A stretch of 63,839 nucleotides of DNA, the filler included, from Folioceros fuciformis (Eukaryota), in NCBI GenBank assembly GCA_049999805.1. It is 7 parts of 7 records of this genome, joined end to end, with 100 filler letters (N's around TTAATTAATTAA, not from the genome) between each part and the next. Parts side by side here need not be neighbours in the genome. Positions count along the whole stretch, not along the records: positions 45,479 to 57,460 come from JBNGIO010001659.1; 6 more parts are not named here. The stretch is one strand, 5' to 3'. Shown in pieces: positions 18,640 through 62,668 of the stretch (position 1 is its first letter; each line of letters starts with the position of its first letter). Both the position numbers and the translations under genes were made by a program. The notes beneath the pieces were generated by a model. That model saw only the letters and a list, made by a program, of their open reading frames with translations. It searched no databases and had not been told where the DNA came from.

Positions 18640-18850
18640 CCATGCCTAGCTTCACCCACTCGAACTTGGAGAACAAGGTATAGACCATGCCCTACCTTTT
18701 AACACTCACTCCAACTTCAAGAACAAGGTACAAGCTATGCCTTGCCTTCACCCACTCCAATTTCAAGAACAGAGTATAGACCATGCTCTACCTTCATCGA
18801 CTCCAACATCAAGAACAAGGTCTCGACCATGTCCTAGCTTCACCAATTCG
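18640..18850. repeat. Degenerate ~45-bp tandem repeat, about 4-5 copies
   Basis: Recurring CATGCCYTRCCTTCA...CTCCAACWTCAAGAACAAGGTATAGAC units. Confidence 0.8.
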
Positions 18851-18879
18851 GTCTCCATGTGTGCAAGGAAGCCACAATA

Positions 18880-19520
18880 TCCAACTCTAGCAAGTAGTTA
18901 ACATGTGAATATAGATGGACAAGGAAGGGGGAAATTAAGGATTGCCTAGGAGTGGGGGAGGTCAAATTGTGCCTCCCTCGATCAGACTATCGAAAATAAT
19001 CTTCCCCCAATCGATCCTACTCCCCTTTGACCACCTCATGCAAGAACAGCAATATATGGTCGGATAAATAATCCTGCTTCTTGTGTTGTAGGAAGCAGAG
19101 GAGCCATTTGGCTAGGCCCATAAACTGAGTGGACGCCATCTCGCGCGTCAGCCAGCCGTTGGTCTCGCGTCCAATGTGCGCCTTGAACAGCACTGTTACT
19201 ACTGCCACCGTACTTTGCTTCAGAAGGGATTCGATTACGATCCCTCTAGCTTCCTCCGTGCTGCGCCCATACACTGCCTTGACCAAGTCCATGTCCCAGT
19301 CCTACAGTGTGTCTTTGATTCCTTCCATTAGCACCTTAACTCGCAGCTGCTGCGCACACTCCTCCACTAGGCCTGGGTTCGCGTAGTTCCAGCGCGTTGC
19401 CATGAACCCGAGACCAAACTTCTCTACCAGTTCACCTACTTGGACCCTCCAGTGGTTTAGGGTTTAGGGTTGGGCTAGAGAGCAATCTCAACTTGCACCA
19501 TAGGTCTGGGTGTGATGTTC
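18880..19520 (-). pseudogene. Disrupted copy of retroelement accessory ORF family
   Basis: ETNGWLTREMA, GLAKWLLCFLQHKKQDYLSDHILLFLHEVVKGE*xDWGKI aligns by eye to the copy at 48324-49228. Contains stops and frameshifts. Confidence 0.75.
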
Positions 19521-19935: not shown

Positions 19936-20035
19936 NNNNNNNNNNNNNNNNNNNNNNNNNNNNNNNNNNNNNNNNNNNNTTAATTAATTAANNNNNNNNN
20001 NNNNNNNNNNNNNNNNNNNNNNNNNNNNNNNNNNN
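19936..20035. other. Artificial contig spacer
   Basis: 100 bp of N with central TTAATTAATTAA (stops in all six frames). Confidence 0.98.
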
Positions 20036-26710: not shown

Positions 26711-26810
26711 NNNNNNNNNNNNNNNNNNNNNNNNNNNNNNNNNNNNNNNNNNNNTTAATTAATTAANNNNNNNNNNNNNNNNNNNNNNNNNNNNNNNNNN
26801 NNNNNNNNNN
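26711..26810. other. Artificial contig spacer
   Basis: 100 bp N/TTAATTAATTAA/N. Confidence 0.98.
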
Positions 26811-41033: not shown

Positions 41034-41133
41034 NNNNNNNNNNNNNNNNNNNNNNNNNNNNNNNNNNNNNNNNNNNNTTAATTAATTAANNNNNNNNNNN
41101 NNNNNNNNNNNNNNNNNNNNNNNNNNNNNNNNN
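41034..41133. other. Artificial contig spacer
   Basis: 100 bp N/TTAATTAATTAA/N. Confidence 0.98.
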
Positions 41134-45378: not shown

Positions 45379-45478
45379 NNNNNNNNNNNNNNNNNNNNNN
45401 NNNNNNNNNNNNNNNNNNNNNNTTAATTAATTAANNNNNNNNNNNNNNNNNNNNNNNNNNNNNNNNNNNNNNNNNNNN
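45379..45478. other. Artificial contig spacer
   Basis: 100 bp N/TTAATTAATTAA/N. Confidence 0.98.
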
Positions 45479-46074
45479 ACACTTGTGCGCGCCAACTTAG
45501 TCATAGTGCACACTTGTGCACACCAATCGAGTCATGGTATACAGAAATATATAGCAAGTGGGTCATGGTCCACACTTGTGGGAATGGGCCCGCTTAGAGC
45601 AAGATATTGTGCGCGGTGGTTTTCTCTTAGCACAAACTTTTGTGCAACAACCGGTTCTTAGTAAGGACTTGAAAATGCCACTTGGCTTCCAACCCGCACT
45701 TCTAGATACCAATAAATTGATTTAATGGCTCCTAAACATGAGGAGAGTAAAACGATAGTGAAACCCTAGGATTCGAATCCTTAGCCCCTTGATCAGCCGT
45801 TTTTGGAGGCATTTAGCCTTGTGAGTGCTATTGTGGCTTGGTTGAGAAGGTCCGCTTGGGTATGGGCCATTGTTGAGGTCAACCCCTGATTTGGGCTGTT
45901 CTAGTGCCCATCCTCTTCCACAACCACTCCCTTACTCATGCTGCATCTTCTACTCTCACCCCACCTAGACAGTTGAAAGGGTTAGCCCCAAAAATACTCT
46001 CCCACTCCTTAGAAGCCTCCACCTATAGTAATAACCCTTATTCACATGCTATTAACTCCTTAACCCCTTGCGTT

Positions 46075-46900
46075 TCATTCTTCAGCACCGCAACTTGCGT
46101 TCTCTCTTTTTCTTGTCCTACTCGCGGCTTCGCAGCTGCCTTTAATCTGGTGACACGGGATGGGGTCCTTACCTCCTATTCGCCTGCCATTGTCTTCCCT
46201 TTCTTTGTCGTGCTCCGCCCGATTGCCTAGCTCTCCCGCGACCTCCCCCTCGGAATCTTCTGGTGGTTTAGGCTCCCAAGTACTGGAGTCCTCCTCTGAA
46301 ACTTCTTTAGGTTCCTCCTCCTCGACCATAACTTCTCTGGCCAACTTCCAACTATGAAGGGAAGACACAATCTGCAACTCCGTTAAGCACTTAGTGTGCG
46401 CAAAAATGTGAATGAAGAAGGGCGAGATGAGGGAGCTCTTCCACCATTCATTGTCTATAGTTGTTATGTAAGGCCTCAACCCCACAAGCCCTGCCTTCAT
46501 ATGTGCTAAACCCTGGGTGGGCGACAAGCCATTGTCCAACCCCTTTTTATCTCGCGCACGCAATGCCAGTAGTGGAGTTGCTCCAATTTCAGCCATTAGT
46601 ACATGTCTCAAAAACTCCAAACCTTCTTTCGGCTCCCAATGGCAAGTTGTTGAATATTGCTTGCTGCGGATGATGGTTGCAAGCCCTTTGTCTGTTACGT
46701 TCTCTCGTGTTATCTTGAACTGGTGCTAGAATGACAAATTGTTCAACTTCCTTACCGCTTGTGGGAGAAAATATTGCTCCCCAGGGTGCTGCGAGGTCCA
46801 CACAAACCTTCTTTGTCGTTATAGCACTGGGATTCGATCCCAAGGGAATGATTTGTGTCAAATAACACAGGTTTTTTCCACCCAAGATCAGTCTCACTCA
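46075..46900 (-). pseudogene. Retroelement accessory ORF, paralog 2 (fragmentary)
   Basis: SSLISPFFIHIFAHTKCLTELQIVSSLHSWKLAREV...EEDSSTWE matches PSMISPFLIHIYCYTNLVSEQEVLASLHLWRPVRDV...EADSNSWE of the 48324 copy. Confidence 0.7.
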
Positions 46901-47799
46901 TCTACCGCTCACCTACCTCCTATTCAACTCCCTCGACCCCATCACGACTCGACTACCACCATCGTCTCCTAAACTACCTAAACCCTGGACTACCTGATGG
47001 ACCTTCTCGGCATCCAGGATGGGTGTCACTCCAACTACGGCTCTCAGCTACTTCGTCACTCCTACGGCTACCGCTACGCTCGGCTACTCCCGTTGTCCCT
47101 CCACAACGGTCACCCAACCGACTACCCCAGTGGGGTCCACCCTCTCTCTCTCTTCACTCCCTCTCTCTATCTTACTCCACGACTTACTTTTCTGGCTTAC
47201 GCCTCCAGACAGTCGTGATATGTCGCGGTCCTCTCTCTCATTTGCGACCACTCTTCCCTCATGGTTCACACCCTTCCATCCTCTCACCGCTACTGACTAC
47301 CCCGACTCAGAGCTCATCGGCTCTCAGTTTACACACCCATACGTACCCGCACTCTGCCCGCGTTCGCCACTAGCTCTTCCCGTTTTCCTCAGGAGCCCTT
47401 ACGCTTCGCTGCGCACGATGGCGCACCCACACACACACACACACACACAGCTCCAAAAAAACCTGACAGCACAGTCTTGGCACATTCACACGTCCCGATT
47501 ACAACCTCAGGCCAGACTCCCCACATCCACTCATGCTTCCCTGCGCTTCAGTCACACGCACATATAGACTTCTCTTTGCCTCACGGCATTCCATCACAGT
47601 ACAGAGTCACACCGGGTTCTCTTCACCCTCACACTCCATTCACTCGCTCATCGGCCACGATCACATCCCCACAGCGCAACACACTCTCCTCTCCGATTTA
47701 CGACTCCTCGACTCATCTCTCAGCTCACTCCTTGCACACAGCCGCACCAGTCTTTCAGCCGTACAGCCACTTCCTTCCTCCATATGTGCCTTATCCTCA

Positions 47800-49300
47800 C
47801 TCAGGACCCGCTGCTTCTCTTCCAGGAGCCGCCGTGCCGTCTCGGACTCCGCCAGCTGTCTCTAGGCTTCGGCCTCCTTTCCTCTTGCCTCTGCCTCCTT
47901 ACTCCGGGCCTCAGCCTCCCTCTCAGCCTGCATGCTCAGCTAGGTCAGCGCCTTGGCCGCCTAGTCCAGCAGGTCCGGTTGTGCCTGCACGATAACTGAG
48001 GTTAGTCCCGGCAGATCCACCTCCTGCGACTCCACAGGGGCCATTCCCCTCTTGGTTATTTGCCTCCCTAGCTGCGCTCGTAACTTCTCTAGCTCCCCTG
48101 CCTGCAGCCTATCCACCTGAGGAATTTTTCTAAAAACATCTTCCCATTCAGGGAATACTTCCTTCTTCGGAACGTGCCCTAATTCCCTCATACCCTTAGG
48201 AGGGGCCACTTCCATTTCTGGCACCTGCTCCTGAGGTGCTTCTAGCTCCTCCTTGTTTGGTTCCTACTCTACTGGCTCTTGAGCAGCTCCCTGCTCCTCC
48301 TCAGCCTGCTCCGGGACTGCCTCCTATGGTGCTGACCCGCTTCCTCTCGTGGCAATCTGGCCACTAGCCCGTCTCCTCTTGGCGGGAGTCCTCTTCCCTG
48401 CCCCTGCCTTCCTCTTTTGCCTGGTGGGGGTCTCCTCCTCCGAGCTGTCCACACTGCCCGACTCCCAGCTGTTAGAGTCAGCCTCCACTGGCTCGGTGGG
48501 CTTCCACTTCACATCCCTTACTGGTCTCCACAAATGTAGTGAGGCTAGCACTTCCTGTTCAGACACCAGGTTAGTATAGCAATAGATATGGATAAGAAAG
48601 GGAGAAATCATCGAAGGCGGAGGAGAGGACAGAGTCAAATTCTGCCTCTCCTCGTCCATCCTGGCATACAGGATTTTCCCCCAATCCACCTTGCTTCCCT
48701 TGACAACCTCGTGCACAAACAGGAGCATCTGATCAGACAGATAATCGTGCTTGCGAACCTGCAGGAAGCTCAAGAACCATCTGGCCAAACCCACCAGCTA
48801 GGGGTTGGCCATATTGCGGATCAGCCACCCATTGGCTTCCTTCTTGGTGCCTGGTTTGAGAAGCACCTCGGCGTCCGCTGTGGCACCACGCTTCTTCAGG
48901 GAATCCAGCACTAGTCCCCCTCCTCCTACTGATTGCAACCATACACCCACCCCACCAGTTCCAGGTTCCATTCTTGGGGCCTGCCGCGGATTCCCTCTTC
49001 TTGGACAGGCTCTCTCAACTTCAGGGCGCACTCCCTGACCAGCTGCGGCGCTGCATGGTTCCACCTTTGGGTCATGAACCCGAGGCCTAGTTCTCCGACC
49101 AGCCCTCCGGCTCTGACCCTCCAGTGCTCCATGTTGGGCCACAGGAGCACGTTGATCTTCGGTACAGGAGGTTCTCCCTCTTGCTCAGGCACCATTACTC
49201 TTGGCAGCAAATGTGGACGAGACCTCATCCTGCCTAATCTCCTCCCGTGCTCCGAACGTGGCTGCCTTCCTGCACCTGTGGTCGCCTGGCATCCTCCTTC
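47800..49300 (-). pseudogene. Retroelement accessory ORF, paralog 1, antisense to the PPT/LTR
   Basis: WPNMEHWRV...GLGFMTQRWNHAAPQLVRECALKL...VGWVYG...NGWLIR...DYLSDQMLLFVHEVVKGSKVDWGKIL, then a basic NLS-like stretch (RQKRKAGAGKRTPAKRRR) and a charged tail. In-frame stops. Confidence 0.75.
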
Positions 49301-49581
49301 CGCGCCGCTCCCTTAGCGCTCGCTCCGCTCCTAACCGTTGTCGCGCTCCGCAGCTACTCTCGGTCCCGCTCCAACTCGCGGATGCTCTTACCTCGATTAC
49401 TGCCCAGGTTCCCCCTGACTTCCTCTAGGGTTTTATACTGCCGTTCTCGTTCCACTACCGCCAGTTGCCCTTCCATGATAGTCGCCCAACTGGCTACCGT
49501 CACCCAGTCACAACATCCCGTTTTTCGCCTAAGTCCACAACTACCTAAGCCCCTACCCCACTTCCTACTTCCTTATTTTTC

Positions 49582-49917
49582 AGGGGGGAGGGGGGTTGCA
49601 TATATAGACACCTGAGTACCCCCGAACCACCAAGGGCCAAGGAAACTCTCGCTCACACTTCCCCTTGGTCCTGTCACTCAATCCTATCAGTACACCAAGG
49701 GCCAAGGAGACTTTGGGTATAAATACCCAAGCCTTATTTCCATATTAAGCTGATTCACTCGCATCTTCACAAAAAAAATCACAACCTGCTCATTCTGCTC
49801 TTGAAAATGGGAGTCCCGAAAGTTTTTCTCCTCTACACCGCTGTAGCATATGTTTATCTCCCTTTGCCTCTACGGACTAGCCAAACGAGAAATCAAGTAC
49901 TTCTATTAGCACTATCA
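49582..49917 (+). mobile_element. Polypurine tract plus ~320-bp 3' LTR
   Basis: AGGGGGGAGGGGGG (49582-49595), TG at 49597, GAACCACCAAGGGCC motif shared in reverse with the LTRs at 23552, 60746 and 62139, TATAAATA at about 49718, ends ...TATCA at 49917. Confidence 0.7.
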
Positions 49918-50475
49918 CCTAGGGTGAGGAGTGTACGCCGTGACTAATATCTCCGCCAAGGCAACCAATGTATACGCCTCTCTATACCATAAGCTCTTTG
50001 AAAAACAAGAAAACATTTGGTCAATCTGGTCATGAGTGTGGCCTACCTGAAGGAAGCCTACCTTCACCTTCTCAAATGTTCCCATTTCCACTAACATATT
50101 CAAATACGCAAATAACAGCCGGTTCTTATTCTCTCTACATGTATTGTCTAGTTGCAGGTATAAAATCTTTGGAACCACACCTTCGTAAGTATGTAAGACA
50201 TTTTGAATAACACTAATTGTCAAATTTGCATCATTCTAAAGATTGCCATAGTGTATGTATGCCCGGGCCTTGTAAATGGCATTGTGCACCATGCACTCCA
50301 CCACATGCACGGCGACCTGGCTTTCTTTGCTAAGATTTTTGGGCCACCTTAGAAAATGTGGTATCTCAGTTTTCTTTTGGTCCATGCCATCAATTGCCAG
50401 CATTATAAATCTATGTGGATGAACATAGCTTTTTTATGTATGCTTCGACGTCTTCTCCCTTTCGGTCGTTAGCCT
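49918..50475 (-). mobile_element. DDE-type transposase remnant (DUF7869/Sola-like)
   Basis: Reading through two stops gives LAIDGMDQKKTEIPHF...HVVECMVH...DANLTISVI...PKILYLQLDNTCRENKN...FLQVGHTHDQIDQMFS. Truncated at the LTR end. Confidence 0.8.
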
Positions 50476-50869
50476 TTCACAATAAGAATCCAATGCCTGT
50501 TGATATTTTTCCGCAGTAACGAAACAATATCAGACATCTCCCCAAGCATCAAATCCCCAATAGCACTGGATGACAAACGGAAAAGAGTCAACGGCCACCA
50601 TCATGCCAATGTCAGAACAAGGTGCCTCCCATCAGCATCTGCCGGTAAGGAGTTCCAAGTGGGGTGTAACCATTGGGGGAGAAGGGCAAGGGTACTAGCT
50701 GGCTGGCCGGCGCCCTCGGTACCACTTATCCCCACTGAGAAGGGTTCATGGAGGGCGCCGGCTGACCGGTGCCCTCTAGGGCAAAGCGTCAGTGATAGTG
50801 GTCCTCGTGGGGGACATGTTACTCAAGTCTAACACAGGTTTTCTGGTGAATCTGTTTCCAACAATTAAA

Positions 50870-51778
50870 GGATGCGGAGAACCTTACGAAGCTCCTCAAA
50901 GAGTTTCAGAACTTCATTTGTTAAGTCAGCAACTAGAAGAGCTTAGACAACGAACGAAGGGCCATCGCTGACAAGGACTTGCATGACGGTTTGTTCAGTT
51001 TCAGCGTGCCATCGACCAATATGCAAATGCAGTATATGGTTGAGGCACGGACTGTGCAAGATATGAGGGGCTATATGCGCAGACGGAACAATGGGTTATT
51101 GTTGATGGATGCTCCTCGTGGGTTTGACATTGGTCCCATGGACGATCGATTGGATGGAGGCATTATGCAAAATGTATTCGCCAGCTTTGCAGAGAAGAAA
51201 ACTAACGAAGATTTCCAGTTGGTGGTCATGCATGGTGTAGAAGATGCACACACTGTTAGGGAGGCCATGAAAAAGTGGTGTAGTCGAGGTGGGCTTGTTC
51301 ATTTGTTTAGGATAAGATGAATCTATCCAATGACCGCGGAGGCTTTGAAATTGTGGACTACATTACTATTGGATGGTCTTTGAAGGAAGGGAGTAGCAAA
51401 CAACACACGTCAATGATGCCAGGGCATAAGGGTGCTACGTTCAACAGTGGAAGATCTATTATTGCACATGATATGGTTGTGAAAAAACATATGTACCTTT
51501 CCCATGACAAACGGGTTGTGTGTCCATATCAGAGACCATTAGGGTTAATGGACAAGCTGATTTGCGGCTTCAATAGAGAGGGTGAGTGGGTCATGGATGC
51601 GTGTTCCGGCAGCGGGACAACACTGCTGGCATCATTGCTAGCTGGAAGAAACTGCATGGCCATTGAAGGGGACAAACGATGTGCAACATACGTTGCCCAG
51701 CGAGTGCATGGTTATGAAGTGCTCCCTGACGTTGTGGAGGAGCTAACGTTTGACCCGCTTCAGAGAGGACCATCATAG
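50870..51778 (+). pseudogene. Beta-class N4-cytosine/N6-adenine DNA methyltransferase homologue (N6_N4_Mtase-like), frameshifted
   Basis: Motif IV-like LLLMDAPRG (DAPR at 51108-51119) precedes CPYQRPLGLMDKLI...REGEWVMDACSGSGTTLLASLLAGRNCMAIEGD, equivalent to the HPxQKP..L...GD.VLDPFxGSGTT...GR..IGIE SAM-binding block. Frameshift and TAG at about 51306-51310. Confidence 0.82.
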
Positions 51779-52589
51779 TACGGGGCGAAGGAAGTATGCA
51801 TTAGTGAGAAGGACTGCTCTCAAGCACAGGTTGTCTCTTTGACATCAAAGAGGAGGAGCCACAAGGCGAGCCCAACAGTTGTGCCAAGATAAGAAACTCT
51901 GGAAAGGGTGTGGGAAGAGCTAGCATCGGACAACGAGGAAGATGGAGATGTGCAAAGGGAGGACAAGGTGCTGGAGGAAGTGGACAACTTTGATCTTCAA
52001 GATGAAGCGCTATTGCATAATGTGGCCGTAGTGTTTAACTTTGTGGTAGCAGGAGATCATCCCGTGGACTAGAGTAGCCGTAGAGTGTATGCTTCTTTGG
52101 GTAGATGTTGAGTACTATTCCCATACACTATACCCTGAAAGACATTATCAAGGCGATGAATAAAATATTTGTTGTACCCACCCTTCATTTTCACGATGAC
52201 TAGAGTTGGAGGGAGAGGGCGCCAGCTGGCCGGCGCCTCTAGAGGCCTGTACCTGAACTAACCTTCACCGTGTAATTCGTGTTTCAGACTTGTCGCAAGC
52301 AAGGAAAGGGTGTGTGATAAACAAGCACATTTGATTTTGTGTGTTTAAAGAATGGTGTCTTTTTTGTGAAGAAGGTCTACCCCCTTTCTATAAGGGTCAC
52401 GACATTCACCCCCTTGCAAGTTTGAGTTGTTCCTAGCAAACTCAAGTTAAGATGACATCTCTCAACACCTTAATAGGACATTAGGCATGCATGGTGCCTA
52501 TCACAATATGCTAAAAAAAAATTGTCCTCTTTTGTACTACAAGGTCTCTACAGGAGCTGAGGATCATAGGTAGACTAGAAAGAGATAAC

Positions 52590-52695
52590 ATGCTTTATTT
52601 CCTTAATCCCTGCCCCACTAGTGAGGTCAGAATTAGGGTAGCATGCTTTATTTCCTCAATTCTTGCCCCACTAGTGAGGTGGGAATTAGGGCAAT
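52590..52695. repeat. 53-bp tandem duplication
   Basis: CATGCTTTATTTCCTYAATYCYTGCCCCACTAGTGAGGT...AATTAGGG twice. Confidence 0.85.
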
Positions 52696-53835
52696 AGTGA
52701 GGTTACCATTTGGAACCAAGATTTGTTCTATTGTTTCTAGGTCTGTCATAGCACAAGATTACAAAGATGGGTTAGCAATGACAAATTTAATTGAATTAGC
52801 GAAAGCTACTAAATGGTGGTAGCATGCTTTGGAATTTATTTCCCACCCATGCTTGTGGGTTGCCCCTCTGGCATAGATATACTCCTTGGACTACATCGAA
52901 GAAGGCATTTTGTCTTTCCCTTACCATAGGCACCACATCTAAGTGGGCATCCTTCCCTTTCAAGGGGCCTCCTACTAAGTAGTGATTCAAGTATAGACAC
53001 CCCATCAAATGGGTCTCCTATCTAAGTATTGATTCATGTGTAGACTCCCATTGAAGAGGCCTCTTACCTAAGTATTTAATTCAAGTACAAACACCCCATC
53101 TAAGTACCGAATCAAAGTGGGCATCCTTCCCTTCTAGAGGACATACTATCTAAGTACGAATTCAAGTACAATCACCCCATCTAAGTACCTATCCAAGTGT
53201 AGGCAACTATCTCATATTTATTCAAGCACAAACACCTCATCAAATTATGGATTCAAATGGAGGATGCTGAATCATGACATTCTTACAAAAGAGCATGCAT
53301 ATATCTAGCTTTAACCATTTGGACTTGATCATTTAATCTTTAAGAGCATAGAATGGGAGTGCTTAAATTGAGCACTTTTGTTGAAGTTAGCCTCGGGTAA
53401 CCGCGACTAGAAGAATACTCGAGGTGAACACTTCGGGCTACCAGTGAAGAAGGGCGCAAAAGAGGCATACGTACATACCATTGTTTGCGCGAGAGGATAC
53501 TACCGCAATCTGCTTGAACTCCATAGGATCGTGCTAAGATACATGTCCATTGTAGGGAGCAGAAAAACATGAAAAAAAAAAAAAAAAGTGAACCGGGTCC
53601 GTTTGGGGAGCCCCTCCGCCACGGTAACCCTGTGATAGAGAGTGGGGGGAGCGGCCGAGCATAAAGCCGCAGCGAGCGTCCATAGCGGATGTTTGTTTTA
53701 TGGAGGCCTTGGAGAGCTGCCAGCCTCCACGCCCTCCTCTGCCAGCGGCTGACCACCTCGCAACCACGCACTCTGCCCTCTTGCTGGCCGCGTTCCGTTC
53801 CGGTGCTGTTCCTGAGAGGCGAGTGCGGCCAGTGC

Positions 53836-55512
53836 ATGGCTCGAGCGCCCATGGCGCTGCAGGATGTGAAGTTTAGTTCTGTGCCGCCAGCGGGAGCCGC
53901 CTCGTCGTCAGCGGCCGCGGCCTCCGGTGTGCTCGGCTCCATTCCCACCCGCTCCTGCTCCGTCACCGAGACCAAGAACGGCTCGCACCACTTCACTATC
54001 CAAGGGTACTCGCTGGCCAAGGGCATGGGTGTGGGCAAGTACATTGCTAGCGAGAGCTTTAGCGTTGGTGGCTACCAGTGGGCCATCTACTTCTATCCCG
54101 ATGGCAAGAACGCGGAGGACAATTCTCTCTACGTATCCGTCTTCATTGCCCTAGCCAGCGAGGGCACGGACGTGAGGGCTCTGTTCGAGCTCACTCTGCT
54201 GGATCAGAGTGGCAAGGGCAAGCACAAGGTTCACAGCCACTTCGAGAGGTCGCTAGAAAGCGGTCCGTATACTCTCAAATATCGCGGCAGTATGTGGTAA
54301 GTTGCTCTCCTGCTGCTTTCCAGAGATCTGCCGTCTTAGGTTTGCTGGAATTGGCTAGGTTTGGAGGTTCGTATGTGTGGATGTATGTGTGCTGATGTCG
54401 AGAGAGGGGTGCAGGGGTTACAAGCGCTTTTTCAGGCGAGCAGTCCTAGAAAATTCAGACTTCCTGAAGAATGACAGCCTTGCCATCACTTGCACAGTTG
54501 GTGTGGTTGTTTCATCCACGCAAGGTCCCAAGCTGAACAGTATTCCTGTGCCAGAGCCGGATTTGGGGAAGCACTTTGGTGACTTGCTTGAGAGCGGTGA
54601 GGGCACGGATGTTACATTTGAAGTGGACGGTGAAACCTTCCATGCGCACAAGCTTGTGCTTGCTGCTCGTTCTCCAGTGTTCAAAGCGCAGTTGTACGGC
54701 CCTTTAAGGGATCGCAATTGTGGCAAATTGCACATTGAAGAGATGCGGGCACCTGTGTTTAAGGTGCGCTCCCTGAGTCATTGCATTGTCCCATGTTATC
54801 TTCCTGTCTCCGTAACGTGGCCGCCGTGTTTACGGTTTAACGTGGCTGGAGTGTGCAGTTTCTCTCGATTTCAAGTTTCTTGACGGATCGCATTTGGTTT
54901 CTCTTTTATATGCAGGCACTGCTGAATTTTATATATAGGGATGCCTTTCCCGACACCAATGACATGACTGGTTGCTGCTCTTCAGCGGCATCCACCTTGA
55001 TGGCTCAGCATTTGCTAGCTGCAGCAGATAGATATGGCTTAGATCGCTTGCGGCTACTATGTGAGTCCAAGTTGTGTGAGGACGTTAGCACTGACACAGT
55101 GGCGACGACCTTGGCCCTTGCCGAACAACACCATGCCTCCCAGTTAAAGGCAGTATGTCTCAAGTTTGCTGCACAACATCTAGCAGGTTGGCTGCGATGT
55201 CCTTGTGTCCCCGCTCATTTCTGTTCCTGTTGCTTGATTGAGTCATCCGAAACAGGTGTTGTTGGCATCCTCTTTCTTTTTGTTTTTCTTTTTTTTTTTG
55301 AAAAGAAAACTTACACGAGTATGCTTTTGTTCCTTATTGCAGAGGTTATGCACTCGGAAGGGTTTGAGTATTTGCGTGAGAGCTGCCCCTCCCTACAATC
55401 TGAGCTTCTAAGAACAGTTGCTGGAGTCGATGAAGACGGAAGTAGGAGGAGTGTGTGCTTGGTGTCAGATGGTACAGATGCAAACGGTCGAAGGGTGAGG
55501 CAGAGAACGTAG
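53836..55512 (+). CDS. BTB/POZ-MATH domain protein (CUL3 substrate adaptor, BPM family)
   Basis: Exons 53836-54296, 54415-54763, 54916-55186 and 55343-55512. [87 protein letters not shown]. Start could be 53851. Confidence 0.95.
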
Positions 55513-56887
55513 GCAGAAGATAATTAGGGATGTACATTTAGGATGTCCTGTATAACTTTGGCTGTTGCAACAGAATCCGCCCTTCGTTTGCAAGGAGAAG
55601 GTGCGTTTTGGTTGCCATCTTCCATGTGGTTTATCTTGTGTCCTTCCTGCCCCTCCCGCCTGCCTTTGGTTCCAAACCTGAGGCTCCAGGATCCGTTTGT
55701 AATTTATACGTCCCTTTGTTGCACCCTACTGTAAGAGGCAGCCCTCCCTGTTGATGCTATGTCTGAGCTAGTGATTGAAATCTGGGCCTCCAGGAGGTCC
55801 TTCCGTCCCAAACATCTTTCTGTTTCATGCTGACGAATTGGAACATGTACCTGCTGTGAGAAGTAAACTTGGCCGGTCTTTTTGATGATTAATTGACGTG
55901 GAGGACAGATCCCACGTGAAGTGTGTGATTGACCCTGCAATGCAGTGATTCCTACGGCAGAGAGTGCAATCATCACGATTAAGTAGGTAGATAATGCAAG
56001 AAAACTCCTCTAGTAACCACGCAAGATAACTCCTCCGACGGGGAGCTTTAGTAACCACTAGTACTTCAGTGGATCGCTTGTACTTTGCTGGCACTGAAGT
56101 GACCACTTACATTTTTGAGATACGCGTTGTAAAAGTATCAGCCGTAGCACATATCTCATTATTAGAGCTGCCTGCCCGTCGAGGCCATAGATAAAAGGAG
56201 TAGAACGTTGAGGGTAGCTGCAAGATTTATATTCTCAGGGCTATAGCTTTGAAGACATTCATTCCTTACCCATGAAATGCAAAGGCTAAGAAGACTTTGA
56301 TCCCTTGAGCATGAGACACAATAGTTGTGAGCTAAGCAAAGGCTTTGAAAACACTCGAGCTTTGTGTGGAAAAAGTTGTGGAGAGCTTACAAGACAAGCT
56401 TGCTAGGGAGTCAAGGGACGTAGCCAAACTTTGTCACAAAAGTATTTACATCGGATTGGGGAGAGCTTGCATTGCAAGCATGTCAAAAAGAGTGAACCAC
56501 AGTAGCCATACTCTAATGTAGAAGTATCCTGCCTATAGAGAGAGCTTGCTAGAGTGTGAAGGGCAGTAGCCACACTTGGTTGCGAAAGGATTTTTGGCAA
56601 TAGAGAGCTTGCATGGGAAGGTAGCTAGAGAGTCCATAGCCACTCTATTGTAAATGCATTCTAAAGAGTAATGGCTCGATGAGGTGGTATGTGGTACACC
56701 TATATTATATGTTATAAGTGAAATTATCACACAATGAAGGGGCCATGATGGGGTGGTTTGTGAGTTGTCAATGGACCACACTTCAAGTTTAGTACTTTGT
56801 TATGTGCTTTAAGCTAAATCATCACACAATGAAGAATTGTGTGCTAGTGATACTCTTGTGGAGTGAATTAACAAAGTACAAAACAAT

Positions 56888-57460
56888 GTATGGTCACGAT
56901 AACTTTCCAAAGCACTATATGATCACAGTTAAGCACTCTATGGGTGCAGCTCAGCACTGTATGGTCACAGTTAAGCATTGTATAGTCACAGTTAAGCATT
57001 GTATGGTCACAACTCAAGCATTATATGGTCACAGCTCAGCACTGTATGATCACAACTCAGCATTGTATGGTCACAACTTAGCACTGTATGGTCACAACTT
57101 AGCACTATATGGTCACAGCTTAGCACTATATGGTCACAACTCAGCACTATAGGGTCACATCTCAGCACTCTATGGTTAGAGTTGAGCACTATATGGTCAC
57201 ATCTTAGCACTCTATGGTCAGAGAGCTGAGCACTCTATGGTCAGAGCTGAGCACCGTATGGTCACAGCTGAGCACTGTATGGTCACAGGTCACATCTCAG
57301 CACTCTATGGTCAGAGCTGAGTACTCTATGGTCAGAGCTGAGCACTGTATGGTCACAGTTGAGCACTGTATGGTCACAGTTGAGCACTGTATGGTCAGAG
57401 CTGAGCACTGTATGGTCAGAGCTGAGCACTGTATGGTCAGAGCTGAGCACTGTATGGTCA
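56888..57460. repeat. 21-bp minisatellite running into the contig end
   Basis: More than 20 head-to-tail copies of approximately (C/G)AGCACT(G/C/A)TATGGTCA(C/G)A(A/G)CT. Confidence 0.96.
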
Positions 57461-57560
57461 NNNNNNNNNNNNNNNNNNNNNNNNNNNNNNNNNNNNNNNN
57501 NNNNTTAATTAATTAANNNNNNNNNNNNNNNNNNNNNNNNNNNNNNNNNNNNNNNNNNNN
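57461..57560. other. Artificial contig spacer
   Basis: 100 bp N/TTAATTAATTAA/N. Confidence 0.98.
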
Positions 57561-62568: not shown

Positions 62569-62668
62569 NNNNNNNNNNNNNNNNNNNNNNNNNNNNNNNN
62601 NNNNNNNNNNNNTTAATTAATTAANNNNNNNNNNNNNNNNNNNNNNNNNNNNNNNNNNNNNNNNNNNN
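62569..62668. other. Artificial contig spacer
   Basis: 100 bp N/TTAATTAATTAA/N. Confidence 0.98.

What the first reader, a model, noticed from the sequence alone, without database searches (positions are those of the whole stretch)
49918..52245. Candidate methyltransferase-carrying DNA transposon: bacterial-type beta-class amino-MTase next to a DUF7869/Sola-like transposase
Seen: a plus-strand reading frame has a catalytic-motif-like LLLMDAPRG followed by the SAM-binding block QRPLGLMDKLI...EGEWVMDACSGSGTTLLASLLAGRNCMAIE. It lies about 400 bp from a divergently oriented IDGMDQ/DNxxRENKN/GHTHxxIDQ transposase. Known: motif IV before motif I defines beta-class N4C/N6A methyltransferases, which are typical of prokaryotic restriction-modification and phage systems and are not part of the standard plant 5mC machinery. 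Horizontally acquired 4mC enzymes are reported in Marchantia sperm and bdelloid rotifers. Inference: this is a decayed copy of a transposon that carries its own amino-MTase, which could mark or protect the element or supply domesticated 4mC/6mA writers. This copy looks dead.
Basis: partly seen in the sequence, partly recalled or inferred. Interest (0 to 1): 0.85.

Follow-up and report, generated by a model that had tools for sequence, protein, structure and literature searches.

The report
Dead methyltransferase gene beside transposase remnant
A plant genome contig holds a broken bacterial-style DNA methyltransferase gene lying head-to-head with a broken jumping-gene enzyme, probably the wreck of a transposon that carried its own methyltransferase, a kind of element so far reported only in red algae.

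Summary
At 50816-52072 (+) lies a pseudogene of a beta-class PF01555 amino-methyltransferase (Pfam 34.2 bits, cut-off 26.7). It has two frameshifts and two premature stops. About 290 bp away, divergently oriented, lies a DUF7869 transposase remnant at 49918-50529 (-) (131 bits). That remnant is split by a ~3.1-kb nested repeat and continues at 46426-46812.

The methyltransferase is not a contaminant. Its nearest relatives form a eukaryote-type clade, named members being Chara, Riccia, Adiantum, Ginkgo and a sea cucumber. The clade has its own signature (D-x-P-[Y/R/H]-G ... PYQKP ... SGSG), and a profile comparison aligns it with bacterial DPPY enzymes (99.8%).

In the window and its three closest relatives that cover the motif, the catalytic aromatic residue is Arg (DAPRG/DLPRG). 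An active 4mC/6mA writer is therefore doubtful for this branch.

Whether the two genes belong to one transposon could not be decided. No genome is held, no termini or target duplications were found, and no context from other genomes could be fetched. Similar divergence from sister copies and the compact head-to-head layout favour linkage. Unequal depth and GC-rich repeats bracketing the methyltransferase alone speak against it.

PF01555 cargo in DNA transposons is already reported for red algae. Interest is moderate.

The parts
50816..52072 (+). Pseudogene of a beta-class (PF01555) amino-methyltransferase of a eukaryote-type family. It reads frame 2 (50780-50971), then frame 0 (50937-51320), then frame 2 (51311-52072). 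The 5' limit is uncertain: ATG at 50816, homology from 50859.
   Evidence: tblastn places P0005 residues 13-164 on 50859-51302 and residues 174-317 on 51317-51745.
51108..51122 (+). Motif IV equivalent, DAPRG. It sits at the position of DPPYG in bacterial enzymes, with the aromatic residue replaced by Arg.
   Evidence: hhalign of the family against bacterial beta-class enzymes gives 99.8% and E 3.7e-28, with DLPRG aligned on D[PL]PYG.
51524..51622 (+). PYQRP (the family's version of HPTQKP) followed by SAM-binding motif I, DACSGSGTT.
51305..51320 (+). Frameshift (frame 0 to frame 2) inside the conserved VW.K.NV block. A second frameshift lies near 50937-50971. In-frame stops lie at 51776-51778 and 51890-51892.
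   Evidence: A diverged sister contig has two extra bases at 50970/50972.
51893..52072 (+). Acidic C-terminal tail (contains VDNFDL at 51980-51997), resembling the acidic tails of family members.
49918..50529 (-). DUF7869 transposase remnant, part 1. It holds DGMDQ, DNTCRENKN and GHTHDQIDQ and has in-frame stops at 50436-50434 and 50238-50236. It corresponds to residues 492-695 of the 1076-aa Riccia protein P0169.
46426..46812 (-). DUF7869 transposase remnant, part 2. It corresponds to residues 719-827 of P0169 and 189-307 of P0170.
   Evidence: E 1e-8 for P0170. In one search, sister contigs join 46756 to 49899 with 87 letters in between.
46829..49906 (.). Nested mosaic of high-copy repeats splitting the transposase gene. 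A 7-bp TAGCACT stands at both edges (46822-46828 and 49907-49913).
   Evidence: summed contig depth in the hundreds to 2878, against about 13 on the unique gene; joints that skip 3142 and 3241 bases..
50530..50815 (.). Spacer of about 290 bp between the divergent genes. It holds a GC-rich hairpin with arms at 50699-50715 (-) and 50753-50769 (+).
   Evidence: folding z-score -2.4.
52217..52233 (+). Third copy of the GC-rich motif, just past the methyltransferase tail. The motif occurs 3 times in the window, all flanking this gene.
   Evidence: 3 matches, 0.17 expected, 0 of 100 shuffles reach 3. (50751-50782 against 52215-52246).
52073..52426 (.). Right flank still shared with at least one diverged sister copy. 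Unique sequence begins between about 52426 and 52680.
   Evidence: records 4 and 10 cover 52084-52219 and 52307-52426; depth falls to about 13 from 52679.

Best explanation
Shown:
- A plant contig (45479-57460) carries two pseudogenes lying head-to-head about 290 bp apart.
- One is a beta-class PF01555 amino-methyltransferase gene of a eukaryote-type, multi-copy family whose core resembles phage methyltransferases.
- The other is a DUF7869 DDE-type transposase gene, split by a 3.1-kb nested repeat and lacking its N-terminal half.

Inferred as most likely: both are remains of one cut-and-paste transposon family that carried the methyltransferase-like gene as cargo, the two genes being transcribed divergently from the shared spacer. 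In intact elements the transposase would move the unit. The cargo protein would bind SAM and DNA and act on the element's own or nearby DNA, for example to counter host silencing or to mark the element.

In this sub-branch the catalytic aromatic residue of motif IV is Arg (DAPRG/DLPRG). The protein may therefore have been a binding or regulatory accessory rather than an active N6A/N4C writer. This copy is non-functional.
For: Identity of the methyltransferase gene:
- Pfam PF01555 scores 34.2 bits against a cut-off of 26.7.
- phmmer against PDB finds DpnA/M1.HpyAVI, M.BceJIV, RsrI and CcrM.
- The family profile against bacterial enzymes gives hhalign 99.8%, E 3.7e-28, over 227 columns.
- The model of the closest intact relative P0022 (pLDDT 71.7) matches CcrM, RsrI, MboIIA and N4CMT with Foldseek E 8e-13 to 4e-9.

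Eukaryote-type family:
- Of 1.84 billion representatives, 728 hits have E<=1e-3, and the best is 42% identical.
- Named members among the 30 proteins looked up are Ginkgo 1, Riccia 2, Chara 4, Adiantum 1 and Holothuria 1.
- The window groups with P0002/P0005/P0004/P0007 (support 85) inside a 59-row clade (support 93) in a 147-row FastTree.

Transposase: 131 bits on PF25273. All 57 scored relatives carry PF25273. tblastn maps two collinear pieces.

For linkage:
- The layout is compact and divergent, with no foreign repeat in between.
- Sister contigs differ from this copy by similar amounts. The transposase part shows 33 of 274 and 18 of 136 letters. The methyltransferase part shows 82 of 609.
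- Summed depth stays about three times the unique level from 50279 to 51878.
- Look-alike clusters of the transposase come from Streptophyta, Mollusca and Hemichordata. This patchy range resembles that of the methyltransferase family (streptophytes plus an echinoderm).
- PF01555 genes are reported as accessory genes of red-algal Plavaka, Mutator and Zisupton transposons (10.1101/2025.02.11.637652, section 8 read).
Against: - No terminal inverted repeats or target-site duplications were found.
- Summed depth is about 100 on 49879-50278 but 36-49 on the methyltransferase, so the two parts are not equally represented. The tool warns that depth is not a copy number.
- The mean for the 50279-50678 bin could be a mix of high transposase depth and single-copy spacer.
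- The transposase homology stops at residue 492 of 1076, exactly where the methyltransferase side begins. An insertion or replacement would look like this.
- The GC-rich motif brackets the methyltransferase alone.
- None of 57 DUF7869 proteins carries PF01555.
- None of 151 methyltransferase-side proteins matches the transposase P0169, and none of the DUF7869-side proteins matches the methyltransferases P0020 or P0001.
- No contig length is shared between the two hit lists.
- The Riccia methyltransferase gene R1sor_017671 and the Riccia DUF7869 genes R1sor_017504 and R1sor_019130 lie on one 46.9-Mb record. Their numbers are not adjacent.
Confidence: 0.47

Rival explanations
1. Chance juxtaposition or nesting. 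The methyltransferase pseudogene belongs to a different mobile element, or is a dispersed retro- or DNA-mediated copy, that landed in or beside the 5' part of an unrelated DUF7869 transposon. The region is a transposon graveyard.
For: - The contig left of 52.4 kb is a mosaic of repeats. A 3.1-kb nested insertion lies in the transposase, and depths range from about 20 to 2878.
- Transposase homology ends abruptly at residue 492 of 1076.
- Depth is unequal for the two parts.
- No fused or co-contig proteins appear in the databases.
Against: - The spacer is only about 290 bp, with no recognisable third element.
- Divergence from sister contigs is similar for both parts, 12-13% against 13.5%.
- The methyltransferase family has no mobility gene of its own in any of the proteins examined.
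Confidence: 0.3
2. The methyltransferase sits in its own small non-autonomous cassette (about 50696-52246, 1.55 kb) bounded by the GC-rich palindromic repeats. A transposase would mobilise it in trans, and it inserted next to the transposase remnant.
For: The motif occurs exactly 3 times in 63.8 kb, all at the edges of the gene (3 found, 0.17 expected). The outer left copy is inverted relative to the right copy, as terminal inverted repeats would be.
Against: - No matching target-site duplication is seen beside 50696 and 52246 (sequence read).
- A sister copy stays alignable beyond the right repeat, at 52307-52426, with 91 letters standing in for 87. The repeated unit therefore does not end at 52246.
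- The palindrome could equally be a binding site or a promoter element.
Confidence: 0.12
3. Host gene relic. This would be a decayed paralogue of a domesticated plant amino-methyltransferase, comparable to Marchantia DN4MT1, and not transposon cargo.
For: PF01555 genes have been domesticated in Marchantia and in bdelloid rotifers. Intact family members are annotated as genes in Ginkgo, Riccia, Adiantum and Chara.
Against: - At least one further diverged copy exists in the same reads.
- Four separate 50%-identity clusters occur in Chara alone.
- The family range is patchy and includes a sea cucumber.
- Motif IV differs from (T)SPPY.
- The gene is embedded in repeats.
Confidence: 0.06
4. Artefact: bacterial or phage contamination, or a chimeric contig.
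For: The domain is typical of prokaryotes and phages. Atlas look-alikes of P0005 are mostly phage clusters. The window is a concatenation of short contigs.
Against: - The same 12-kb contig carries a MATH-BTB gene that is spliced at three GT-AG introns in a second study's contig.
- Logan contigs match 50369-51248 and 52397-54387 without a difference.
- The nearest relatives are eukaryotic.
- Prokaryotic and viral collections hold only distant relatives, 26-51% identical over short stretches.
Confidence: 0.02

Closest known systems
PAG2 accessory gene (PF01555 N6-adenine methylase plus SET) of giant Plavaka, Mutator and Zisupton DNA transposons of red algae. Source: Bostrychia moritziana genome preprint, 10.1101/2025.02.11.637652; section 8 and methods passages read.
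   Same: A bacterial-type PF01555 methyltransferase gene lies beside a DDE transposase gene in a eukaryotic DNA transposon. Most copies are degenerate. Inverted-repeat arrays next to an accessory gene are reported there, and a GC-rich palindrome flanks the gene here.
   Different: No SET domain in the window or in any relative scanned. The transposase family differs (DUF7869, not EnSpm/Plavaka). The lineage is streptophyte. The element is small rather than 17-19 kb. Linkage is not demonstrated here.
Bacterial and phage beta-class N6-adenine methyltransferases: CcrM (6pbd), M.RsrI (1eg2), M.MboIIA (1g60), M1.HpyAVI/DpnA (5hek/5hfj), M.BceJIV (8urk).
   Same: Domain order is the same (motif IV, then target-recognition region, then motif I). 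The SAM-binding D.xxGSGTT motif, the VW.K block and the fold are shared. PHROG phrog_67 matches P0001 with E 1.5e-27.
   Different: Motif IV is D-x-P-[Y/R/H/S/Q]-G instead of DPPY, and it is Arg in the window. PYQ(K/R)P replaces HPTQKP. The gene lies in a eukaryotic genome. Long forms have an N-terminal region of about 450 aa with no detectable family.
Marchantia MpDN4MT1a/b (bioRxiv 10.1101/2021.02.12.428880, passages read) and bdelloid rotifer N4CMT (PMC8885841, passages read; structures 8s9m-o).
   Same: These are horizontally acquired PF01555 beta-class enzymes in eukaryotes. N4CMT is among the fold matches of the relative's model.
   Different: Those are intact, expressed, low-copy host genes with (T)SPPY motifs and proven 4mC activity. 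This is a multi-copy pseudogene family member with DAPRG. No closer kinship was found: N4CMT scores E 0.13 in phmmer.
C5-DNMT genes captured by retrotransposons of charophytes and dinoflagellates (PMC5890265; title and start of abstract seen in the listing).
   Same: A mobile element carries a DNA methyltransferase, including in the charophyte lineage.
   Different: That is a C5 cytosine methyltransferase in retrotransposons, not an amino-methyltransferase beside a DDE transposase.
Inactive methyltransferase domain of DIRS1 retrotransposons (Iyer et al. 2016, PMC4738411, passages read).
   Same: A transposon-borne methyltransferase-fold protein has substitutions at catalytic residues, which suggests a non-catalytic role.
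   Different: It belongs to a different clade (PCIF1-like, group 2), is embedded in a retrotransposon polyprotein, and is not PF01555.

Membership tests
Beta-class amino-methyltransferases (Pfam PF01555 N6_N4_Mtase) | HMM match above the curated gathering score | tested here: met
   ORF 51311-51778 scores 34.2 bits against 26.7, E 3.3e-8, but only on profile positions 162-216 of 221. ORF 50937-51320 has no Pfam match.
Beta-class amino-methyltransferases (Pfam PF01555 N6_N4_Mtase) | Permuted order: catalytic motif IV N-terminal to SAM-binding motif I | tested here: met
   DAPRG at 51108-51122 precedes DACSGSGTT at 51596-51622. The equivalence of D-x-P-x-G with DPPYG comes from hhalign (99.8%) and the alignment.
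Beta-class amino-methyltransferases (Pfam PF01555 N6_N4_Mtase) | Catalytic tetrapeptide (D/N/S)-P-P-(Y/F/W). The consensus is recalled; DPPW, SPPY and TSPPY are quoted. | tested here: not met
   The window has D-A-P-R. The closest relatives P0002, P0005 and P0022 have D-L-P-R. Ginkgo has D-I-P-H. Chara has D-F/L-P-Y.
Beta-class amino-methyltransferases (Pfam PF01555 N6_N4_Mtase) | Beta-class fold | tested here: met
   Tested on the closest intact relative only, because the window gene is broken. The P0022 model has pLDDT 71.7 and pTM 0.75. Foldseek gives CcrM 8.4e-13, RsrI 1e-11 and MboIIA 3.5e-11, with TM 0.5-0.63.
Beta-class amino-methyltransferases (Pfam PF01555 N6_N4_Mtase) | Open reading frame and methyl-transfer activity on DNA | tested here: not met
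   There are two frameshifts and in-frame stops at 51776 and 51890. Activity and target base cannot be tested with these tools.
DUF7869 (PF25273) transposase | HMM match above the gathering score | tested here: met
   131.4 bits against 26, profile 36-141 of 192. It is 68% identical to P0152, and all 57 scored relatives carry PF25273.
DUF7869 (PF25273) transposase | Complete protein with terminal inverted repeats and target-site duplication of the element | tested here: not met
   Only residues 492-695 and 719-827 of the 1076-aa P0169 are detectable. There are two in-frame stops and a nested 3.1-kb insertion. No terminal repeats were found between 45479-46450 and 52000-52900.
   No transposon reference library is on hand. 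'DUF7869' occurs in 0 papers of the library. The Sola search gave listings only.
DNA transposon with amino-methyltransferase cargo (as in the red-algal PAG cassette) | Methyltransferase and transposase inside one pair of termini, repeated in several copies | tested here: inconclusive
   There is one copy in the window. Sister contigs exist for each part, with similar divergence but unequal summed depth. No genome is held. No eukaryotic contexts were retrievable.
DNA transposon with amino-methyltransferase cargo (as in the red-algal PAG cassette) | SET domain fused to the methylase (PAG2 architecture) | tested here: not met
   No SET domain in the window ORFs or in 25 relatives scanned with Pfam.
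Domesticated eukaryotic N4C methyltransferases (MpDN4MT1, N4CMT) | (T)SPPY motif, in an intact, expressed, low-copy host gene | tested here: not met
   The window has DAPRG, is a pseudogene, and has further diverged copies in the reads. The motifs of the known enzymes are as quoted.

The most novel reading that the evidence does not exclude
Streptophytes from Chara to Ginkgo, and some marine invertebrates, harbour a so far undescribed lineage of compact two-gene DUF7869 transposons. Their cargo is a phage-derived beta-class amino-methyltransferase. That cargo has repeatedly lost its catalytic tyrosine (to Arg, His, Ser or Gln). This implies a shift from DNA methylation to a non-catalytic role, such as binding the element's GC-rich palindromes or blocking host silencing. 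The window holds a fossil of this lineage.
Probability: 0.3. Interest if true: 0.7.

Novelty: new variant of a known kind. Interest (0 to 1): 0.5.

Why it matters
Transposons that bring their own DNA-modifying enzymes bear on how mobile elements escape or exploit host silencing. They also bear on how eukaryotes acquired 6mA/4mC writers. PF01555 cargo has been reported for red-algal giant transposons.

A streptophyte counterpart with a different transposase would show that such captures recur in the plant lineage. It would also give a pool from which domesticated amino-methyltransferases could have arisen.

The repeated loss of the catalytic aromatic residue is a caution. Annotating these genes as 'DNA methylase' may overstate what they do. 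This particular copy is a dead relic, so its value is as a pointer to the family, not as a functional element.

Tried and rejected
- Whole-genome search: no genome is held for this window.
- Word-indexed protein searches with ORF B, at near and longer lengths: nothing found.
- Earlier findings of this scan: nothing by place, sequence or words that bears on this. The 8 items listed are prokaryotic and unrelated.
- Metagenome contigs with the Chara-type alignment: 4 loci, all weak. L002 is phage-like. P0020's own contig was not retrieved.
- An alignment of 18 family members was too diverse to search with.
- Viral contigs: 7 distant phage-type methyltransferase loci for alignment A3. None for P0169, A6 or A4.
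- Prokaryote genome contigs: none for the transposase. For the methyltransferase, 14 distant hits, mostly Clostridia assemblies, 31-50% identical over 29-68 residues.
- RNA: no RNA holder is listed for the stretch. Run X4 has no cover on 49.9-52.7 kb. This says nothing on expression.
- ParB-like reading of the family's N-terminal region was my recollection from a GG.H...A-like motif and is not supported:
  - Pfam gives only DUF6551 at E 0.019 in P0001.
  - A family profile against PDB hits only the methyltransferase part.
  - The AlphaFold model of P0001 is unusable (pLDDT 42.7), so no fold search was made with it.
- Search for terminal inverted repeats between the contig's left part and the right flank, and for LTR-like or inverted ends of the nested insert: only low-scoring matches.
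- Rejected: bacterial contamination (see rivals).
- Rejected: kinship with DN4MT1/N4CMT beyond the shared Pfam family.
- Supplementary files of the papers were not seen. Supplemental Table 6 and Fig. 13 of the Bostrychia preprint may hold PAG2 details relevant to kinship.
- Literature searches for a description of this family:
  - 'DUF7869': 0 papers.
  - PF01555 + eukaryot: 17 papers.
  - N6_N4_Mtase + transposable element: 8 papers.
  - Five transposon, methyltransferase and streptophyte terms: 4 papers.
  - Plavaka, adenine, methyltransferase and accessory gene.
  - Only the red-algal preprint is relevant.
Full report
**Setting.** The window is not one stretch of chromosome. Six N44-TTAATTAATTAA-N44 linkers join seven contigs. 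The finding lies on the contig 45479-57460. No whole genome is held, so genome-wide tests were not possible.

The same contig carries a MATH-BTB-BACK (BPM-type) gene (Pfam). Its exons are joined at three GT-AG introns in a contig of run X4, which comes from a different study. The contig is therefore eukaryotic and plant-like.

**Observation.**
- On the + strand, ORF 50937-51320 (frame 0) holds LLLMDAPRG.
- ORF 51311-51778 (frame 2) holds PYQRP and DACSGSGTT.
- Pfam places the second ORF in PF01555 above the gathering score (34.2 against 26.7 bits). It finds nothing in the first.
- NCBIfam gives only weak CcrM-type matches.
- On the - strand, ORF 49915-50235 scores 131 bits on DUF7869.

**Anatomy of the methyltransferase gene.** I aligned it with relatives and ran tblastn with them.
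- The gene runs from about 50816/50859 to 52072.
- It has a frameshift near 50937-50971.
- A second frameshift lies at about 51305-51320, inside the conserved VW.K.NV block.
- In-frame stops lie at 51776 and 51890.
- An acidic tail follows, like the tails of relatives.

**What family the methyltransferase belongs to.** A full HMMER scan of 1.84 billion representatives with ORF B gave 728 hits at E<=1e-3, 17 at <=1e-10 and none at <=1e-30. No close relative is on record.

I looked up names for 30 of the best 150 hits.
- The named ones are Ginkgo biloba (P0001), Riccia sorocarpa (P0011, P0024), Chara braunii (P0016, P0018, P0034, P0041), Adiantum nelumboides (P0149) and Holothuria leucospilota (P0151).
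- The rest are unnamed assembly products or bacterial-type.

These proteins share a signature: D-[LIFA]-P-[YRH]-G, then VW.K.NV, then PYQKP, then D.xSGSG. Bacterial hits have D[PL]PYG and HPTQKP.

Several tests place the family among beta-class enzymes.
- A profile of six eukaryote-type members aligns with a profile of 13 bacterial members at 99.8% probability (E 3.7e-28, 227 columns). DLPRG falls on D[PL]PYG.
- A profile of seven long members hits M.MboIIA, DpnA, CcrM and RsrI in the PDB.
- The model of the closest intact relative P0022 (pLDDT 71.7) matches CcrM, RsrI, M.BceJIV, MboIIA, and also rotifer N4CMT and M.PvuII.
- PHROGs and the Atlas point to phage methyltransferases as the nearest outside kin.

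A FastTree of 147 rows is short and weakly resolved. It puts the window with P0002/P0005/P0004/P0007 (support 85) inside a 59-row eukaryote-type clade (support 93). The window's end branch is long.

**Catalytic motif.** The aromatic residue of motif IV varies across the family.
- It is present in Chara (DFPYG/DLPYG), in Riccia P0024 and in several unnamed members.
- It is Arg in the window and in 3 of 3 members of its subgroup that cover the motif (P0002, P0005, P0022).
- It is His in Ginkgo, Ser in P0029 and Gln in Holothuria.

The SAM-binding motif is kept. I infer that this sub-branch may not have been an active base methyltransferase. This is inference, not a test.

**Transposase.** The last word-indexed search gave 57 relatives, all PF25273 only, except one that also carries PF00759. 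None carries PF01555.

tblastn with full-length relatives maps residues 492-695 of the 1076-aa Riccia protein P0169 to 50520-49918. It maps residues 719-827 to 46746-46426. In between lies a 3.1-kb mosaic of high-copy repeats.
- Sister contigs in runs X1 and X2 join 46756 to 49899, with 87 letters in between.
- A 7-bp TAGCACT stands at both edges.
- The fragment has two in-frame stops.
- The N-terminal 491 residues and the C-terminal 250 residues of the Riccia-type protein are not detectable.

In favour:
- The pair is compact and divergent, with a spacer of about 290 bp and no third repeat in between.
- Diverged sister contigs exist for both parts and differ from this copy by similar amounts. 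The transposase side shows 33/274 and 18/136 letters. The methyltransferase side shows 82/609, and the right flank 14/136 and 9/116.
- Summed depth is about three times the unique level from 50279 to 51878.
- Both families have a patchy range of streptophytes plus marine invertebrates.
- PF01555 genes are reported as accessory genes of red-algal DNA transposons.

Against:
- No termini or target duplications were found.
- Summed depth on 49879-50278 is about 100, against 36-49 on the methyltransferase. The tool warns that depth is no copy number.
- The transposase homology stops where the methyltransferase side begins.
- A GC-rich palindromic motif occurs three times in the window, only at the two edges of the methyltransferase gene.
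- No fused proteins or shared contigs appear in the two hit lists.
- The Riccia genes of the two families are not neighbours by their numbers.

One sister copy remains alignable beyond the right GC-rich repeat, to about 52426. This argues against a cassette ending at 52246.

**Comparison with what is known.**
- The nearest precedent is the PAG2 gene (PF01555 plus SET) of red-algal Plavaka, Mutator and Zisupton elements (preprint 10.1101/2025.02.11.637652, section 8 and methods passages read). Here there is no SET domain, and the transposase family and lineage are different.
- MpDN4MT1 and N4CMT are intact host genes with (T)SPPY.
- The 2016 survey of eukaryotic N6A methyltransferases (PMC4738411, passages read) lists 13 acquisitions. 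In the passages I read, none is a streptophyte family of this kind.
- C5-DNMT capture by charophyte retrotransposons is known (PMC5890265, listing only).
- Searches for DUF7869, and for PF01555 or N6_N4_Mtase with transposable elements, found no description of this pairing.

**Verdict.** The locus is a fossil. Its interest lies in pointing to an apparently undescribed streptophyte-wide, transposon-like family of beta-class methyltransferase genes, and to a possible DUF7869 carrier. Interest is 0.5.

Noticed in passing
window 19936-20035, 26711-26810, 41034-41133, 45379-45478, 57461-57560, 62569-62668: Six N44-TTAATTAATTAA-N44 linkers. The window is a concatenation of seven separate contigs, so features on different sides of a linker are not neighbours in the genome.
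   Followed up: yes
window 53887-55892 (+): A MATH-BTB-BACK (BPM/SPOP-type) gene. In a contig of run X4 its exons are joined at three GT-AG introns (54295/54414, 54761/54914, 55182/55339). It lies about 1.8 kb downstream of the methyltransferase relic.
   Followed up: partly
window 46760-46878: A very high-copy short repeat of about 119 bp. Summed contig depth is about 2878, against about 13 on unique sequence, and many contigs break at 46760 and 46873-46878. It lies at the edge of the nested insertion.
   Followed up: no
window 46168-46434 (-), 48357-48599 (-), 18849-19124 (-): Three ORF pieces share a motif of the type ISPF[FL]IHI...LH.W. ORF46 against ORF48 is 32% identical over 84 aa (E 6e-9). 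ORF48 against the piece on another contig is 51% identical over 92 aa (E 2e-27). Pfam finds nothing. They may be a domain of a further repeat family related to the transposase C-terminus.
   Followed up: partly
run X3 laid on window 45479-57460: Differences are almost only C>T (258) and G>A (219), as in bisulfite-converted DNA. Such a run could be used to read cytosine methylation over the relic.
   Followed up: no
window 56911-57460: A tandem array of a 21-bp unit (25.7 copies, 83% matches) runs into the contig end. Further tandem repeats of 53 bp (52589-52691) and 46-47 bp (52954-53104) lie between the relic and the BPM gene.
   Followed up: no
proteins P0001, P0016, P0020, P0034, P0041, P0018, P0151, P0031, P0050, P0149, P0011: Long members of the methyltransferase family (Chara, Ginkgo, Holothuria, Adiantum, Riccia) share an N-terminal region of about 450 residues (phmmer E 1e-185 to 3e-6 against P0020 residues 1-560). 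Pfam, PDB sequence search and an AlphaFold model could not assign it to any family. The window copy and its closest relatives lack it.
   Followed up: partly
proteins P0016 (Chara braunii, 1825 aa): The predicted protein contains two tandem units of the whole N-terminal-region-plus-methyltransferase architecture. This is consistent with adjacent repeated copies merged by gene prediction.
   Followed up: no
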